A stretch of 4,040 bases of DNA from the NCBI GenBank assembly GCA_000004985.1, contig GG739200.1; one strand, given 5' to 3'. The translations under genes were made by a program, and so were the position numbers. Positions 250 to 4,040 of the stretch are shown here, in pieces. The notes under the pieces were generated by a model that worked only from the letters and a program-made list of their open reading frames with translations, ran no database searches and had not been told where the DNA came from. Position 1 is the first letter of the stretch; the number at the start of each line of letters is the position of its first letter. This DNA is from Naegleria gruberi. Its lineage: Eukaryota.

Positions 250-863
250 ATGTCATTACAACTCATTCCACTCGATACCATCACGATCATTGCTAAATTT
301 CTTTCATTTTCCGAACATCTCCAACTCATGCTAATCAATACCATTTGGTTCCATCTTTTAAATAGTGATGAGATGTGGAGAGGAAGAATAACACAACTCG
401 ACTCTCATCTTTCAATTCATGCCAAGTTGCTCAACAGGGAAGAACCCATTAAACTCCATGCAGAAAGTTCGAATATTAGAGAAATTCTAATGAATATTTA
501 TAAAGAAACCAAGGAATCGATCGATCTAGCATATAAATTGAAAGAATGTAAGAAAATTAAAAAACTCAAAAACACTTGGAGTACTAATTCGGAAGAAATT
601 GAAAACTTTACTAAATTTTGTGAGAATTTCAAATTGGAGGAATATGCGAATTTACTGAAAGAATCAGAGCCAATTAGATGTTGCCTAGTTGGGCCACATG
701 CTATTGGAAAGACCACTCTGTGTTATTATCTTCACCTTAGGAATGAAAAATCCAAATTGGAAGAGTGGTTTTCTGGATGGGGTCCCCATTACTATGATTC
801 GTGTGATATTGATAGAAGTGAAGGTTATTGTTTACAATTAGTAGACACACCAGGTCAGGAAGA
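250..863 (+). CDS. Exon 1 of an F-box/Rho-like GTPase gene. It carries an N-terminal F-box-like motif (about nt 262-378, LIPLDTITIIAKFLSFSEHLQLMLINTIWFHLLNSDEMW). A Lys/Glu-rich linker follows. The small-GTPase G domain starts at about nt 670, with P-loop GPHAIGKT at 691-714 and DTPGQE at 844-861. The exon ends in phase 2 (GA|).
   Basis: The ATG at 250 sits in an A-rich context. A 204-codon open frame covers the exon. The F-box spacing pattern (LP.D....I...L.....L..L..V...W....W) and the G1/G3 GTPase motifs were read directly from the translation. The in-frame TAA at 865-867 lies inside the proposed intron. Confidence 0.7.
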
Positions 864-920
864 GTAAGTTTAATGATTCATTCTCAACCCTTTAATCATT
901 GAATTATTATTATTACTCAG
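864..920 (+). other. Spliceosomal intron, 57 nt, phase 2. The donor is GTAAGTT and the acceptor is ..TTACTCAG.
   Basis: Removing 864-920 joins ..DTPGQE-GA|T-YDRLRPLSY.., which is exactly the Rho-family switch-II consensus DTAGQEDYDRLRPLSY. The canonical GTAAGT donor starts at 864 and an AG acceptor sits at 919-920. The intron holds an in-frame stop and an (ATT)4 run. Confidence 0.65.
903..914. repeat. (ATT)4 trinucleotide run inside the intron.
   Basis: attattattatt is visible in the sequence. Minor. Confidence 0.5.
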
Positions 921-1170
921 TTATGACAGATTAAGACCTTTATCTTATGATAAACCATCCAAATGTCACATTTTTATAATGTGCTATGCAATATCGAGTC
1001 CAGTAATGATGATTAAGTGTTTGGAGGATTTTTCTGATAGATTTCTTCCAGAAATTCAATCATTTTTGGATTACAACAGGTCAGTGTTGGTAGTTGGAAC
1101 AAAATCTGATATTTGTGATTATTCAAAAACAGGAGATTTTCGTTTGGGAAAATATTGGAATAGTTATTTG
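921..1170 (+). CDS. Exon 2 of the F-box/Rho-like GTPase gene, truncated by the assembly gap. It encodes (D)YDRLRPLSYDKPSKCHIFIMCYAISSPVMMIKCLEDFSDRFLPEIQSFLDYNRSVLVVGTKSDICDYSKTGDFRLGKYWNSYL...
   Basis: The frame is continuous with exon 1 after splicing. It aligns collinearly with RhoA residues 63 to about 140 (DYDRLRPLSY ... F.C.S..SP.S.EN..EKW.PE.... ...LVG.K.DL). The G4 motif reads TKSD instead of NKxD. The frame runs open into the N-run at 1171. Confidence 0.7.
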
Positions 1171-2613
1171 NNNNNNNNNNNNNNNNNNNNNNNNNNNNNN
1201 NNNNNNNNNNNNNNNNNNNNNNNNNNNNNNNNNNNNNNNNNNNNNNNNNNNNNNNNNNNNNNNNNNNNNNNNNNNNNNNNNNNNNNNNNNNNNNNNNNNN
1301 NNNNNNNNNNNNNNNNNNNNNNNNNNNNNNNNNNNNNNNNNNNNNNNNNNNNNNNNNNNNNNNNNNNNNNNNNNNNNNNNNNNNNNNNNNNNNNNNNNNN
1401 NNNNNNNNNNNNNNNNNNNNNNNNNNNNNNNNNNNNNNNNNNNNNNNNNNNNNNNNNNNNNNNNNNNNNNNNNNNNNNNNNNNNNNNNNNNNNNNNNNNN
1501 NNNNNNNNNNNNNNNNNNNNNNNNNNNNNNNNNNNNNNNNNNNNNNNNNNNNNNNNNNNNNNNNNNNNNNNNNNNNNNNNNNNNNNNNNNNNNNNNNNNN
1601 NNNNNNNNNNNNNNNNNNNNNNNNNNNNNNNNNNNNNNNNNNNNNNNNNNNNNNNNNNNNNNNNNNNNNNNNNNNNNNNNNNNNNNNNNNNNNNNNNNNN
1701 NNNNNNNNNNNNNNNNNNNNNNNNNNNNNNNNNNNNNNNNNNNNNNNNNNNNNNNNNNNNNNNNNNNNNNNNNNNNNNNNNNNNNNNNNNNNNNNNNNNN
1801 NNNNNNNNNNNNNNNNNNNNNNNNNNNNNNNNNNNNNNNNNNNNNNNNNNNNNNNNNNNNNNNNNNNNNNNNNNNNNNNNNNNNNNNNNNNNNNNNNNNN
1901 NNNNNNNNNNNNNNNNNNNNNNNNNNNNNNNNNNNNNNNNNNNNNNNNNNNNNNNNNNNNNNNNNNNNNNNNNNNNNNNNNNNNNNNNNNNNNNNNNNNN
2001 NNNNNNNNNNNNNNNNNNNNNNNNNNNNNNNNNNNNNNNNNNNNNNNNNNNNNNNNNNNNNNNNNNNNNNNNNNNNNNNNNNNNNNNNNNNNNNNNNNNN
2101 NNNNNNNNNNNNNNNNNNNNNNNNNNNNNNNNNNNNNNNNNNNNNNNNNNNNNNNNNNNNNNNNNNNNNNNNNNNNNNNNNNNNNNNNNNNNNNNNNNNN
2201 NNNNNNNNNNNNNNNNNNNNNNNNNNNNNNNNNNNNNNNNNNNNNNNNNNNNNNNNNNNNNNNNNNNNNNNNNNNNNNNNNNNNNNNNNNNNNNNNNNNN
2301 NNNNNNNNNNNNNNNNNNNNNNNNNNNNNNNNNNNNNNNNNNNNNNNNNNNNNNNNNNNNNNNNNNNNNNNNNNNNNNNNNNNNNNNNNNNNNNNNNNNN
2401 NNNNNNNNNNNNNNNNNNNNNNNNNNNNNNNNNNNNNNNNNNNNNNNNNNNNNNNNNNNNNNNNNNNNNNNNNNNNNNNNNNNNNNNNNNNNNNNNNNNN
2501 NNNNNNNNNNNNNNNNNNNNNNNNNNNNNNNNNNNNNNNNNNNNNNNNNNNNNNNNNNNNNNNNNNNNNNNNNNNNNNNNNNNNNNNNNNNNNNNNNNNN
2601 NNNNNNNNNNNNN
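1171..2613. other. Assembly gap of 1,443 N.
   Basis: An uninterrupted run of n. It separates the 3' portions of two convergent genes. All ORF-track entries made of X are artifacts of this gap. Confidence 0.99.
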
Positions 2614-2881
2614 CATAACATTGATTCTTGGTAGTTATGGCAATTATTAAATTATTTAATTGATTAGTCGTAACAGTAGTAATATATGAAATGGTACCAT
2701 CAAGTTTTGGGAGTGTATAATCTATTTTATGGAAATTAATATGGAGTACTTTAACTTTGTTTACTCCGAGTTGATCTTTCAAGCCTTGTGGAATTTTTAA
2801 TAAATTATCGGATAGAATTAGTTTTACTAATTCTTGTTCATGATCTTCTTGATGTTCTTCTTTTTGTGGAATTCTCTTCAT
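2614..2881 (-). CDS. N-terminal part of a leucine-rich-repeat protein. The product is MKRIPQKEEHQEDHEQELVKLILSDNLLKIPQGLKDQLGVNKVKVLHINFHKIDYTLPKLDGTISYITTVTTNQLNNLIIAITTKNQCY... and continues into the gap.
   Basis: The first ATG on the - strand is the reverse complement of 2879-2881. It is preceded by AAAAAAA, the same A-rich start context as gene 1. A classical LRR signature LxxLxLxxNxLxxIPxxL is present (LVKLILSDNLLKIPQGL), followed by a second LRR-like unit (VKVLHINFHKI). The frame stays open down to the N-run. The upstream in-frame hydrophobic stretch on the track begins at TTG, not ATG. Confidence 0.5.
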
Positions 2882-2892
2882 TTTTTTTGTAG

Positions 2893-2908
2893 TTTTTAAT
2901 ATTAAAAA
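2893..2908 (-). promoter_or_regulatory. A/T palindrome TTTTAATATTAAAA (2894-2907) containing AATATTAAAAA in the minus sense. It lies 12-27 nt upstream of the gene-2 ATG.
   Basis: Read from the sequence. It is a perfect 14-nt palindrome and shares an 11-mer with the gene-1 start region. Its function is speculative. Confidence 0.2.
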
Positions 2909-3694
2909 TAATACCAAAATAAAGATCAGCAAGGCTACACTTTTAAAAAGCAATAAATAAACTCGATTGTTAGCTATCTTTATTCTTCAATAACCTGAAC
3001 AAACAAGATTCGTCCAAGAACTCTTGAATTCACTGTTCATACAGTCAAAGACTGTAGCGGGATTGTCGCCATATTCCTGGCAGGCTTCCCGTCTAAATCA
3101 TTAAGTGAAATTTATTAAAATCTTAAATTTAATTATTTTTTAGTCATTAATATTATTGGCATTCTACATTGGGGCAGTAGTTGATTATGAAGAAACTCTT
3201 TTCATTTTCCAGTATTTAGTACCAAGCCAAATATTTCCTTAGGTGTCCTAAGATTTCAGGATAAAGAACTATTTGCCAAGTTAATTGAAAAAAGACTACA
3301 GCAGCACAGGTTCCCACATCAGTACTACAAAGACCAATGTTAGATTCATTATTGCAGGTGGATTTGTTACACATCTGGTATCTAATTGTGGTTGTTGTGA
3401 TATTGATATTTTCACAATTTCTAATGGGTCTAGTTACGAAATTATCGATGATATGATCATCATAGATTTGGTATTATTTTTTAATGAAAAACTATTATCA
3501 TCATTCCAGTGAAATGTGAGCTTAAAAACTCTCTGAGCCATGTCATGAATGTTTGTGCATGGAGTCTGTGTTCAAATGGGTGCAAATCAACACACAGTGT
3601 ATCCAATCCTCTTCTACTATATTTGATGGCTCTATTTACAATATGATATTCACTACTTTTGTCATACCATTGAAGAGTTACTCATCAAACATCC

Positions 3695-4040
3695 ATGTAC
3701 ATTACTGAAGGTTATTTGGATAGCCATCATAAAAGCAAGTATGGATTCGATAGATGCTACTTGTGCAATCAATACAAGATGGACGGCTTTAAATCCATGT
3801 GTCACAAATGTAAATATTGGAATATTGGAATGGAAAAGATGCATAGAGATCTTTCTGGAAAAGTTGCATTCGTTACAGGAGGAAGATGTAAAATAGGTTA
3901 TGAAACTAGTTTGCTATTATTGAGAATGAAAGCAACTGTAGTGGTCACAACAAGATTTGGCTTTAATGCACTCTCCAAATTCCAGAAAGAAAGCGACTAT
4001 AAGGAATGGAAAGATAATTTGATTATTTACCCTCTGAATT
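3695..4040 (+). CDS. N-terminal part of a short-chain dehydrogenase/reductase (SDR) family oxidoreductase; the ORF runs off the window end. Alternative starts lie at 3779 (MDGF.., strong Kozak context A-3/G+4) and at 3830 (MEKMHRDLSGKVAFVTGG.., the canonical SDR N-terminus).
   Basis: The frame is open from the TGA at 3671-3673 to the window end (122 codons). The Rossmann nucleotide-binding motif KVAFVTGGRCKIGYETSLLLLRMKATVVVTTR was read directly; it has the TGxxxGxG form and a basic Arg after beta-2, which suggests NADP(H) preference. Upstream of that core is an in-frame CYLC-x11-CHKC segment. The ORF track did not list this ORF because it has no stop inside the window. Confidence 0.6.
   Translation, partial: MYITEGYLDSHHKSKYGFDRCYLCNQYKMDGFKSMCHKCKYWNIGMEKMHRDLSGKVAFVTGGRCKIGYETSLLLLRMKATVVVTTRFGFNALSKFQKESDYKEWKDNLIIYPLN

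What the first reader, a model, noticed from the sequence alone, without database searches (positions are those of the whole stretch)
3695..3850. SDR oxidoreductase is preceded by an in-frame Cys-rich CxxC-x11-CxxC segment, a possible zinc-ribbon N-terminal extension
A canonical SDR N-terminus would be MEKMHRDLSGKVAFVTGG, starting at 3830. The same frame, however, is open for 52 further codons upstream, which is unusual in AT-rich non-coding DNA. That stretch encodes ...GFDRCYLCNQYKMDGFKSMCHKCKYWN..., four cysteines arranged as two CxxC knuckles 11 residues apart. This is the spacing of a small zinc-ribbon or rubredoxin-like metal site. I do not know of a characterised SDR family with a zinc-ribbon at its N-terminus. 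The ATG at 3695 has a poor Kozak context (T at -3), whereas 3779 and 3830 have good ones. The extension may therefore instead be a uORF or leader, and the status is open.
Basis: partly seen in the sequence, partly recalled or inferred. Interest (0 to 1): 0.5.

Follow-up and report, generated by a model that had tools for sequence, protein, structure and literature searches.

The report
Conserved zinc finger fused to SDR
The four-cysteine block is a real, conserved zinc-finger-like module that always precedes the dehydrogenase fold in a very large uncharacterised enzyme family. This copy is an ordinary member whose upstream half is scrambled, so the "start codon" at 3695 is not the ancestral start.

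Summary
An open frame runs from the TGA at 3671 into an SDR N-terminus and encodes CYLC-x11-CHKC.

The block is neither chance nor leader. The four Cys, plus the Tyr after Cys1 and an Asn after Cys4, are at least 90% conserved in frame in hundreds of homologues at 35-54% identity. At least 8000 proteins belong to this family. They come from bacteria, heterolobosean amoebae and ciliates, and three giant-virus proteins match it structurally. All that carry a name are labelled only "SDR family oxidoreductase" or similar. No Pfam model and no solved structure covers the Cys block.

AlphaFold models (pLDDT about 91) show a beta-hairpin knuckle plus a helix that starts at the second CxxC. That is treble-clef-like rather than a classical zinc ribbon.

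It is not an N-terminal extension. In the nearest relatives (Naegleria, Willaertia) the module lies inside roughly 1000-residue F-box / nucleotidyltransferase / zinc-finger / SDR proteins. In Willaertia this is a single exon.

The window holds fragments of that upstream region. One is inverted, about 600 nt are missing, and 4 nt are lost just before ATG 3695. The copy is probably a rearranged, possibly dead or truncated paralogue. Interest is modest.

The parts
3671..3673 (+). In-frame TGA that closes the reading frame upstream of the finding
   Evidence: In the 98%-identical contig L001 the frame is open here because 4 more bases are present downstream.
3690..3697 (+). Site of a 4-nt loss (ATCCATCC reduced to ATCC). 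It puts the upstream YDIHYFC...IKHP coding out of frame with SMYITEGY...
   Evidence: blastn alignment of L001 against the window: L001 reads AACATCCATCCATG and the window reads AACATC----CATG.
3692..3754 (+). Conserved pre-finger segment SMYITEGYLDSHHKSKYGFDR. A helix is predicted at DSHHKSKY. Met3695 is an internal residue in relatives.
   Evidence: Aligns with SIYITEGYLDSHLMKKYKYYK (N. gruberi) and SFYFQEGYFESHLRAKYNFYK (W. magna). The window model shows helix 10-17.
3755..3766 (+). First CxxC knuckle (Cys21-Tyr-Leu-Cys24, counting Met3695 as residue 1)
   Evidence: C22, Y23 and C25 of alignment A2 are at least 90% conserved. Cys counts are 142/142 and 142/143 among covering hits.
3800..3811 (+). 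Second CxxC (Cys36-His-Lys-Cys39) at the N-terminus of a helix
   Evidence: C37 and C40 of A2 are at least 90% conserved. Cys counts are 153/156 and 154/156. The helix at residues 38-48 starts here in the window model.
3746..3835 (+). Whole Cys4 module: a beta-hairpin carrying knuckle 1, a variable 11-residue loop, knuckle 2, and a helix that leads into the Rossmann fold. The conserved Asn43 (WN) is included.
   Evidence: AlphaFold2 models. The window fragment has pLDDT 90.5. The full-length homologue P0021 has pLDDT 91.2 and pTM 0.91. No Pfam hit even at E<=10.
3851..4040 (+). N-terminal third of the SDR Rossmann fold (beta1 to beta3). It runs off the window end. It includes TGGRCKIG (3875-3898) and TTRF (3947-3958).
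3639..3694 (+). Remnant QYDIHYFCHTIEELLIKH(P) of the region that precedes the finger in intact relatives. Here it lies in a different frame from the finger.
   Evidence: tblastn: P0003 residues 583-600 match 3639-3692. tblastx to the Willaertia gene.
3502..3639 (-). Inverted fragment encoding (V)NRAIKYSRRGLDTLCVDLHPFEHRLHAQTFMTWLREFLSSHFTGM. This is the end of the nucleotidyltransferase-like region of relatives.
   Evidence: tblastn: P0003 residues 421-463 match 3636-3511 on the minus strand, 60% identity, E 1e-12. P0156 and P0157 match likewise. L001 positions 1-241 are the reverse complement of 3739-3502.
3312..3500 (+). Fragment encoding ...TNVRFIIAGGFVTHLVSNCGCCDIDIFTISNG.... This is the G-G...D-x-D core of the Gad2-like nucleotidyltransferase domain of relatives.
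   Evidence: tblastn: P0003 residues 264-297 and P0002 residues 268-308 match 3312-3434. The W. magna domain hits PHROG 1614, nucleotidyltransferase, at E 1.3e-9, and has a precomputed Pfam PF26128 Gad2 hit.

Best explanation
Bases 3746-3835 encode a Cys4 metal-binding mini-domain. It consists of a CxxC knuckle on a beta-hairpin, a variable loop, and a second CxxC that caps the N-terminus of a helix. That helix runs straight into strand beta1 of an SDR Rossmann fold.

This finger-plus-SDR unit defines a very large, functionally uncharacterised family found in bacteria, heterolobosean amoebae, ciliates and giant viruses.

Inferred, not shown:
- The four cysteines bind one Zn2+.
- The finger is a rigid structural cap or docking surface held against the dinucleotide-binding half of the enzyme.
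- The cofactor is probably NADP(H), because of the invariant Arg in TGGR and in TTRF.

In the closest relatives (Naegleria, Willaertia) the unit is the C-terminal half of a roughly 1000-residue, single-ORF protein. Its order is F-box, Gad2-like nucleotidyltransferase domain, linker, finger, SDR.

The window carries a 5'-rearranged copy of such a gene:
- The nucleotidyltransferase core fragment is at 3312-3500 (+).
- The next segment is inverted at 3639-3502 (-).
- About 600 nt are missing.
- A 4-nt loss at about 3694 breaks the frame.
- No F-box region is present.

ATG 3695 is therefore an internal Met codon that only looks like a start. The copy is most likely a decaying or truncated paralogue, at roughly 55-60% for that part. 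If it is expressed at all, it could yield only a stand-alone finger-SDR.
For: - Conservation. phmmer against 1.84 billion representatives found 1671 hits, 689 of them at E<=1e-10. Most align from the first CxxC through the SDR.
- The CxxC...CxxC motif is visible in nearly all of the 150 best hits. Cys counts are 142/142, 142/143, 153/156 and 154/156.
- Alignments A1 and A2 show at least 90% conservation of all four Cys, of Tyr after Cys1, and (in A2) of Asn after Cys4.
- Family size and spread: at least 8000 proteins at E<=1e-30. Giant-virus structural matches have TMq 0.77-0.79.
- Structure: P0021 model pLDDT 91.2, pTM 0.91, hairpin at 16-17 and 24-25, helix 35-49 starting at Cys34/37. The window fragment model has pLDDT 90.5 and the same topology.
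- Internal position: tblastn maps four collinear pieces of N. gruberi D2VJT2 onto the window. The second is inverted and the third and fourth are in different frames.
- The W. magna gene is one 3060-nt ORF. There the fragments lie 823 nt apart, against 220 nt in the window.
- L001, a 96-98% identical metagenome contig, has the continuous ORF ...SSHFTGMADEG...IEKYDIHYFCHTIEELLIKHPSMYITEGY... and the extra ATCC.
- L001 also shares the inverted junction.
Against: - Metal binding is inferred from sequence and model topology only. I had no access to model coordinates, so no Cys-Cys distances were measured.
- The role of the finger is inference. Bacterial gene neighbourhoods gave no clue.
- The rearrangement could be an assembly artefact. 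The window contains a 1443-N scaffold gap. L001 carries a suspicious perfect 103-bp inverted repeat and could be a k=127 graph chimera.
- The coding sequence from 3756 to 4040 is 100% identical to L001 and has no defect. The rest of the gene lies outside the window. A functional truncated gene therefore cannot be excluded.
- Short family members exist, for example P0021 with only 17 residues before Cys1. A stand-alone finger-SDR is therefore viable.
Confidence: 0.78

Rival explanations
1. This is a live, truncated gene. After the rearrangement the copy is transcribed from a new promoter in the 150-200 nt upstream. It is translated from ATG 3695 into a stand-alone finger-SDR enzyme of about 400 residues, like the short family members.
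For: The ORF from 3695 to the window end is intact and identical to L001 from 3756 onwards. All four Cys and every invariant SDR residue in range are retained. Short members with little sequence before the finger exist, such as P0021 (377 aa) and P0080 (372 aa). With or without the 4-nt loss, Met3695 is the first ATG of the frame.
Against: Several out-of-frame ATGs lie between 3540 and 3650, so a longer leader would be burdened with upstream starts. Met3695 is not conserved as a start in any relative. The sister contig L001 has a deletion of about 100 codons plus a frameshift inside the SDR domain, which suggests this lineage of copies is decaying. The rest of the window gene is unseen.
Confidence: 0.3
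2. The rearrangement is an assembly artefact. The real locus is an intact gene of about 3 kb for F-box, nucleotidyltransferase, finger and SDR. The inversion, the missing 600 nt and the 4-nt loss come from mis-joined short-read contigs.
For: The window is a scaffold with a 1443-N gap. The junction lies on a near-palindrome, AATATGATATT. L001 contains the correct order (segment B, the segment missing from the window, YDIHYFC, finger) and a perfect 103-bp inverted repeat of the kind graph assemblers can create.
Against: The same improper junction occurs in two assemblies that differ by 2-4% in sequence. A k=127 assembly needs real reads across it. Only about 435 nt separate the nucleotidyltransferase fragment from the divergent minus-strand ORF that starts at 2880. 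That leaves no room for the roughly 800 nt of F-box region seen in Willaertia.
Confidence: 0.15
3. The Cys4 site is a redox-active iron centre (rubredoxin-like) or a redox-switch disulphide pair that feeds or gates the SDR, not a structural zinc site.
For: The catalytic Tyr of the SDR is missing in the family, so unusual chemistry is conceivable.
Against: The rubredoxin knuckle consensus (C-x-x-C-G ... C-P-x-C-G, from my own knowledge) is absent. Family consensus is CY[IV]CK ... CxxCxxxN. The second pair sits on a helix N-terminus, which is typical of structural treble-clef zinc sites. The inter-knuckle loop varies from 11 to more than 50 residues.
Confidence: 0.08
4. The stretch is leader, uORF or a chance open frame. 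The Cys block is non-coding or a separate upstream peptide, and the enzyme starts at ATG 3830 or 3779.
For: ATGs also exist at 3779 and 3830.
Against: The block is conserved at the protein level across domains of life. Chance gives 0 in 200,000. A start at 3779 would cut the metal site in half, and a start at 3830 would remove it.
Confidence: 0.02

Closest known systems
Naegleria gruberi NAEGRDRAFT_58420 (UniProt D2VJT2, 'F-box domain-containing protein', 995 aa), its N. fowleri paralogues, and Willaertia magna KAL9648981.1 (1019 aa)
   Same: These are the best full-length hits, at about 52% identity over 120 residues by tblastn and 53-54% in alignment A2. They share the SxYxTEGYxxSHL pre-finger segment, the CY[IL]C...CxxC finger, TGG/A-R-x-KIGY, TTRF and the YPLN strand. 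Fragments of their nucleotidyltransferase-like region are present in the window.
   Different: In those proteins everything is collinear in one ORF. In the window the F-box part is absent, one fragment is inverted, about 600 nt are missing and the frame is broken. The inter-knuckle loop is 16-24 residues in those proteins and 11 here.
Bacterial 'SDR family NAD(P)-dependent oxidoreductase' proteins of 440-520 aa. Examples are Labrys neptuniae WP_367623220.1, Ochrovirga pacifica, Microseira, Waterburya and Aureispira.
   Same: They have the same finger-SDR unit, including the CYxCK...H.FY..LC..C..FNY.KR consensus, NNAAQT, the insertion of about 100 residues after beta4, HPHTNMAKAALNM and a C-terminal Trp.
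   Different: Their N-terminal region is a helical segment of about 100 residues instead of F-box plus nucleotidyltransferase. Identity to the window is 31-41%. None is characterised, and no conserved neighbouring genes were found.
Classical SDRs with solved structures, such as gluconate 5-dehydrogenase 3CXR/1VL8 and FabG 4I08/1I01
   Different: They have no Cys4 module and no 100-residue insertion, and identity is only 15-20%. Their catalytic Tyr aligns with Thr or Asn in this family.
Treble-clef and zinc-ribbon Cys4 fingers (structural classes; from my own knowledge of Grishin's and Krishna's classifications)
   Same: Two CxxC pairs, the first on a beta-hairpin knuckle, and small size (about 30 residues).
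   Different: The second pair lies at a helix N-terminus. No sequence model matched. The geometry was not measured.
Klosneuvirinae 'dehydrogenase/oxidoreductase' proteins: Harvfovirus A0A3G5A578, Klosneuvirus KNV1 A0A1V0SKJ3 and Homavirus A0A3G5A6W1
   Same: Whole-length structural match to the finger-SDR model, with TMq 0.77-0.79 and 27-36% identity. They are 570-635 aa long and so have N-terminal extensions.
   Different: They are viral, and their sequences were not examined here residue by residue.

Membership tests
Finger-SDR family (uncharacterised; defined here by alignments A1 and A2) | Four Cys arranged as CxxC-loop-CxxC, with Tyr after Cys1 and Asn 3 residues after Cys4, ending about 15-20 residues before strand beta1 | tested here: met
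   The window has C21, Y22, C24, C36, C39 and N43. All of these columns are at least 90% conserved.
Finger-SDR family (uncharacterised; defined here by alignments A1 and A2) | TGG(A)-R-x-K-I/V-G-Y/F motif and T-T/S-R-F after beta2 (invariant T, G, R, G, R and F) | tested here: met
   TGGRCKIGY at 3875-3901 and TTRF at 3947-3958. The invariant columns are T62, G63, R65, G69, R88 and F89 of A2.
Finger-SDR family (uncharacterised; defined here by alignments A1 and A2) | NNAAQT, an insertion of about 100 residues containing D-x-R-x-x-NSW, HPHTNMAKAALNM, DTGW and a C-terminal Trp | not testable with these tools
   These features lie beyond the window end at 4040. L001 shows NNAAQT but then a deletion.
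Classical SDR (Pfam PF00106 adh_short) | Pfam gathering score | tested here: inconclusive
   The window fragment scores 15.2 bits against a cut-off of 26.6, because only the first 33 profile positions are present. Full-length homologues score 59-79 bits, apart from one shorter, possibly incomplete one at 30.9 bits.
Classical SDR (Pfam PF00106 adh_short) | Catalytic Tyr of the YxxxK motif | tested here: not met
   This was tested at family level, not in the window. hhalign of A1 against E. coli FabG aligns Y151 with Thr282 of P0021 and K155 with K286. The position is Thr or Asn in members. His279 is invariant nearby.
Zinc ribbon (two beta-hairpin knuckles) | Both CxxC pairs lie on hairpin turns | tested here: not met
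   In both AlphaFold models the second CxxC opens an alpha-helix: residues 35-49 in P0021 and 38-48 in the window fragment. This evidence comes from models only.
Treble-clef zinc finger | A knuckle on a beta-hairpin supplies ligands 1-2, and the first turn of a helix supplies ligands 3-4 | tested here: met
   DSSP on the models shows strands flanking C22/C25, with C37/C40 at the helix start. The same holds in P0021. Metal binding itself cannot be tested here.
Rubredoxin | C-x-x-C-G and C-P-x-C-G knuckles, and an Fe(Cys)4 centre | tested here: not met
   No Gly follows either pair and there is no Pro in pair 2, in the window or in the consensus. No Pfam hit at E<=10.
Heterolobosean F-box / nucleotidyltransferase / finger / SDR proteins (D2VJT2 type) | One collinear ORF: F-box, G-G...DxD nucleotidyltransferase domain, linker, finger, SDR | tested here: not met
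   No F-box match upstream. The nucleotidyltransferase fragments are broken: 3312-3434 on the plus strand and 3636-3511 on the minus strand. About 600 nt are missing and the frame shifts at about 3694.

The most novel reading that the evidence does not exclude
The finger-SDR family may not be a set of ordinary dehydrogenases. It has at least 8000 members in bacteria, amoebae, ciliates and giant viruses. A treble-clef Cys4 finger is obligatorily welded to an SDR fold whose catalytic Tyr is replaced by Thr or Asn, with an invariant His beside it. In amoebae, and in a divergent homologue (P0007) that lacks only the F-box, the unit is fused to a Gad2-like nucleotidyltransferase, with an F-box in amoebae. 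The family could therefore be an undescribed enzyme class acting on nucleotides or nucleic acids, or a ubiquitin-ligase-linked sensor. The finger would be the substrate- or partner-docking element. The window would be one, possibly degenerate, representative.
Probability: 0.2. Interest if true: 0.6.

Novelty: new member of a known kind. Interest (0 to 1): 0.3.

Why it matters
For this locus it matters little. It is one more, probably damaged, copy of a gene type already present by the thousand in public databases.

The wider points are these:
- A metal-binding finger that no domain library models is an invariant part of a huge, cross-kingdom SDR subfamily.
- That subfamily has no characterised member and no solved structure.
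- It has a non-canonical catalytic motif.

Annotators currently label these proteins simply "SDR family oxidoreductase". A finger model and a biochemical test would improve thousands of annotations.

The case also shows that an apparent N-terminal extension with a weak start codon can be the stump of a larger rearranged gene.

Tried and rejected
- Word-indexed protein searches found nothing, with the 115-aa window peptide and with the N. gruberi nucleotidyltransferase region. The index evidently misses these eukaryotic sequences. The exhaustive phmmer search was needed.
- Pfam on the Cys segment alone gave no hit at E<=10.
- NCBIfam on homologues gave only generic SDR models, all far below their cut-offs.
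- PDB sequence and fold searches found only classical SDRs. None covers the finger.
- Exact-protein look-ups for two window ORFs and for N. gruberi P0003 were not on record.
- The JGI metagenome scan with P0001 found no relatives.
- Literature searches for a zinc-ribbon or CxxC SDR, for Naegleria F-box SDR, and for PRJEB11402 found nothing relevant.
- Three bacterial neighbourhoods showed no conserved partner.
- I looked for GT-AG introns that could splice the upstream fragments into frame with the finger, or rescue the L001 deletion. None fits the frames (reading).
- Synteny with the Willaertia locus: none beyond the gene itself.
- A minus-strand gene model that I first drew over 3000-3540 was dropped once the plus-strand homology appeared.

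Full report
**1. The observation**

The window is AT-rich (A+T 68%) and looks eukaryotic. The first gene carries a 57-nt GT..AG intron.

- An in-frame TGA lies at 3671-3673.
- Met codons lie at 3695, 3779 and 3830.
- Cys codons lie at 3755, 3764, 3800 and 3809, giving CYLC-x11-CHKC.
- The SDR-type start GKVAFVTGGRCKIGY follows.

At the window's base composition, a 52-codon open stretch has P of about 0.015. An open stretch that also carries CxxC-x5-40-CxxC never arose in 200,000 simulations.

On the fragment alone the SDR call is sub-threshold (adh_short 15.2 bits against 26.6). Only about 63 residues of the domain lie inside the window.

**2. Is the Cys block a real protein module?**

A word-indexed search found nothing. 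An exhaustive phmmer search of 1.84 billion representatives found 1671 hits, 689 of them at E<=1e-10. Most of the 150 best alignments begin at query residues 15-20, just before the first CxxC, and run through the SDR part.

Inspection of these hits shows the same block almost everywhere. Examples are CYICKxxxxxxHxFYxxxCxxCxxFNYxKR...DLxGKxAxVTGGRxKIGY, CYMCKKYIKYNGKHMCHACDKIN and CYLCKQY...FCKDCKQFN.

- Among the hits that cover each column, Cys is present in 142/142, 142/143, 153/156 and 154/156.
- In two MAFFT alignments of 65-70 sequences at 31-54% identity, the four Cys and the Tyr after Cys1 are at least 90% conserved. The alignment led by the window also shows the Asn after Cys4 at that level.
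- The leader or uORF alternative is refuted for the family.
- The inter-knuckle loop varies from 11 residues (here, and in P0007 and P0027) to more than 50.

**3. How large and how well known is the family?**

Named members include:
- Cyanobacteria: Waterburya, Microseira and Nostocaceae.
- Bacteroidota: Aureispira, Crocinitomicaceae, Flavobacteriaceae and Ochrovirga.
- The alphaproteobacterium Labrys.
- Tetrahymena malaccensis.
- Naegleria gruberi, N. fowleri and Willaertia magna.

Klosneuvirus-type giant viruses hold whole-length structural matches (TMq 0.77-0.79).

Every member that carries a name is generic: "SDR family NAD(P)-dependent oxidoreductase", "hypothetical protein" or "F-box domain-containing protein". 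Pfam sees only adh_short and adh_short_C2. Nothing covers the Cys block, and NCBIfam has no specific model.

No solved structure contains the module. I found no paper describing it. Three bacterial neighbourhoods share no partner gene.

**4. What fold is it?**

AlphaFold2 with the family alignment gives confident models:
- P0021 (377 aa): pLDDT 91.2, pTM 0.91.
- The window's own 116 residues: pLDDT 90.5.

Both show the same layout. A short helix comes before the finger (DSHHKSKY in the window). Two short strands flank the first CxxC. The second CxxC sits at the first turn of a helix of 11-15 residues. That helix leads into beta1 of the Rossmann fold.

A knuckle plus a helix is the treble-clef arrangement (my knowledge of the structural classes). 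It is not the two-knuckle zinc ribbon and not a rubredoxin, whose Gly/Pro knuckle consensus is also absent.

Zinc binding itself is inferred. I could not read coordinates or test for metal.

**5. How it probably works (inference)**

The finger is fixed to the dinucleotide-binding half of the enzyme by a conserved helix (N..KR motif). It most likely serves as a structural cap or a docking surface rather than a catalytic element.

The invariant Arg in TGGR and in TTRF suggests NADP(H). This follows the established rule that basic residues at these two sites mark NADP(H) preference in SDRs. It is not tested here.

At family level, hhalign against E. coli FabG aligns the catalytic Tyr151 with Thr (Asn in some members) and Lys155 with the invariant Lys. 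An invariant His lies in a 4-residue insertion just before. The chemistry may therefore be non-canonical. That region lies outside the window.

**6. It is not an N-terminal extension**

The best full-length relatives are N. gruberi D2VJT2 (995 aa), the N. fowleri paralogues (971-984 aa) and W. magna KAL9648981 (1019 aa). In these the finger lies at residues 567-640.

The W. magna gene is a single 3060-nt ORF. Its N-terminal region hits the PHROG family "nucleotidyltransferase" at E 1.3e-9. It also carries a precomputed Pfam hit to PF26128 Gad2. Gad2 is a phage anti-Gabija protein predicted to have a nucleotidyltransferase domain (bioRxiv 10.1101/2023.05.01.538930).

About 22 of the nearest homologues share this upstream domain. 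Met3695 aligns with Ile, Phe or Leu (S-[IFL]-[YF]-x-[TQ]-[ED]-G-Y) inside that continuous ORF.

**7. The window copy is broken upstream**

tblastn places four pieces of D2VJT2 on the window in protein order:

| D2VJT2 residues | Window position | Strand / frame |
|---|---|---|
| 264-297 | 3333-3434 | plus |
| 421-463 | 3636-3511 | minus |
| 583-600 | 3639-3692 | plus, one frame |
| 602-723 | 3692-4039 | plus, another frame |

Residues 298-420 and 464-582 are absent, and nothing matches the F-box region. In Willaertia the first and third pieces are 823 nt apart. In the window they are 220 nt apart.

A metagenome contig, L001 (ENA ERZ929261, 1156 bp), is 96-98% identical to the window:
- It carries the continuous ORF ...SSHFTGM-ADEGDYDD...IEK-YDIHYFCHTIEELLIKHPSMYITEGY....
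- It reads CATCCATCCATG where the window reads CATCCATG, a 4-nt loss.
- Its first 241 bases are the reverse complement of window 3739-3502, so it shares the improper inverted junction. That junction sits on the near-palindrome AATATGATATT.
- It also has a perfect 103-bp inverted repeat.
- It has a deletion of about 100 codons with a frameshift after NNAAQTVRRPV.

The simplest reading is a family of recently duplicated, decaying or truncated copies. An assembly artefact is less likely, because two assemblies that differ in sequence share the junction. It cannot be excluded.

From 3756 to 4040 the window is identical to L001 and undamaged. The ORF from 3695 could in principle still encode a stand-alone finger-SDR like the short family members.

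**8. Comparison and verdict**

The window element works like, and belongs to, the finger-SDR family. All family features that fall inside the window are present. It is not an intact member of the heterolobosean F-box / nucleotidyltransferase / finger / SDR architecture.

The metal-site module is real. The labels "zinc ribbon", "N-terminal extension" and "start at 3695" do not hold.

- **Novelty:** a new and probably defective member of a kind already abundant in databases.
- **Open at family level:** the unmodelled finger, the missing Tyr and the nucleotidyltransferase fusion are uncharacterised and moderately interesting.
- **Interest:** 0.3.

Noticed in passing
window 250-1170 (+): A gene for an F-box-like N-terminus fused to a Rho/Ras-family GTPase (Pfam Ras E 6.8e-12; F-box weak). 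A 57-nt GT..AG intron at 864-920 restores DTPGQE|D-YDRLRPLSY. The gene runs into the N gap.
   Followed up: partly
window 1171-2613: A scaffold gap of 1443 N. It shows the source is a scaffolded draft assembly, which bears on how far the rearrangement can be trusted.
   Followed up: no
window 2614-2880 (-): An open frame starts at ATG 2880 and runs leftwards into the gap (MKRIPQKEEHQEDHEQELVKLILSDNLLKIPQGL...). No family match, only a sub-threshold Spo16_N hit. Its start lies about 435 nt from the nucleotidyltransferase fragment, leaving no room for the F-box region of intact relatives.
   Followed up: partly
window 2990-3100, both strands: A GC-richer island (0.35 against 0.25 in the flanks) with open frames on both strands. 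An example on the minus strand is REACQEYGDNPATVFDCMNSEFKSSWTNLVCSGY*. No Pfam match, and unexplained.
   Followed up: partly
window 3502-3639 (-) and junction 3639/3640: An inverted coding fragment of the same gene family abuts the plus-strand coding at the near-palindrome AATATGATATT. The same junction is present in an independent metagenome contig.
   Followed up: yes
L001 1-103 versus 568-670, and L001 about 1076-1084: The 98%-identical metagenome contig has a perfect 103-bp inverted repeat. It also has a deletion of about 100 codons with a frameshift inside the SDR domain (NNAAQTVRRPV | IIECQMVNSIAP).
   Followed up: partly
family level (P0021 residues 279-286; outside the window): The canonical SDR catalytic Tyr is replaced by Thr or Asn (HPHTNMAK). 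An invariant His lies in a 4-residue insertion just before it. The family also has an insertion of about 100 residues after NNAAQT, and the 71 complete members among the 150 best hits end in Trp.
   Followed up: partly
window 3312-3500 (+); L007 6001-9060: The upstream domain of the nearest relatives carries an hG-G-x11-D-I-D motif. It matches PHROG 1614 (nucleotidyltransferase) and has a precomputed Pfam PF26128 Gad2 hit (phage anti-Gabija protein). A fusion of F-box, Gad2-like nucleotidyltransferase, Cys4 finger and SDR in amoebae, and (minus the F-box) in a divergent homologue (P0007), appears undescribed.
   Followed up: partly
BFVD hits A0A3G5A578, A0A1V0SKJ3 and A0A3G5A6W1: Klosneuvirinae giant viruses encode whole-length structural homologues of the finger-SDR with long N-terminal extensions. 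This hints at gene exchange between amoebae and giant viruses.
   Followed up: no
window 2890-2918 versus 3467-3494: A 29-nt AT-rich inverted repeat (90% identity) flanks the region that holds the upstream gene fragments. It is probably low-complexity chance.
   Followed up: no
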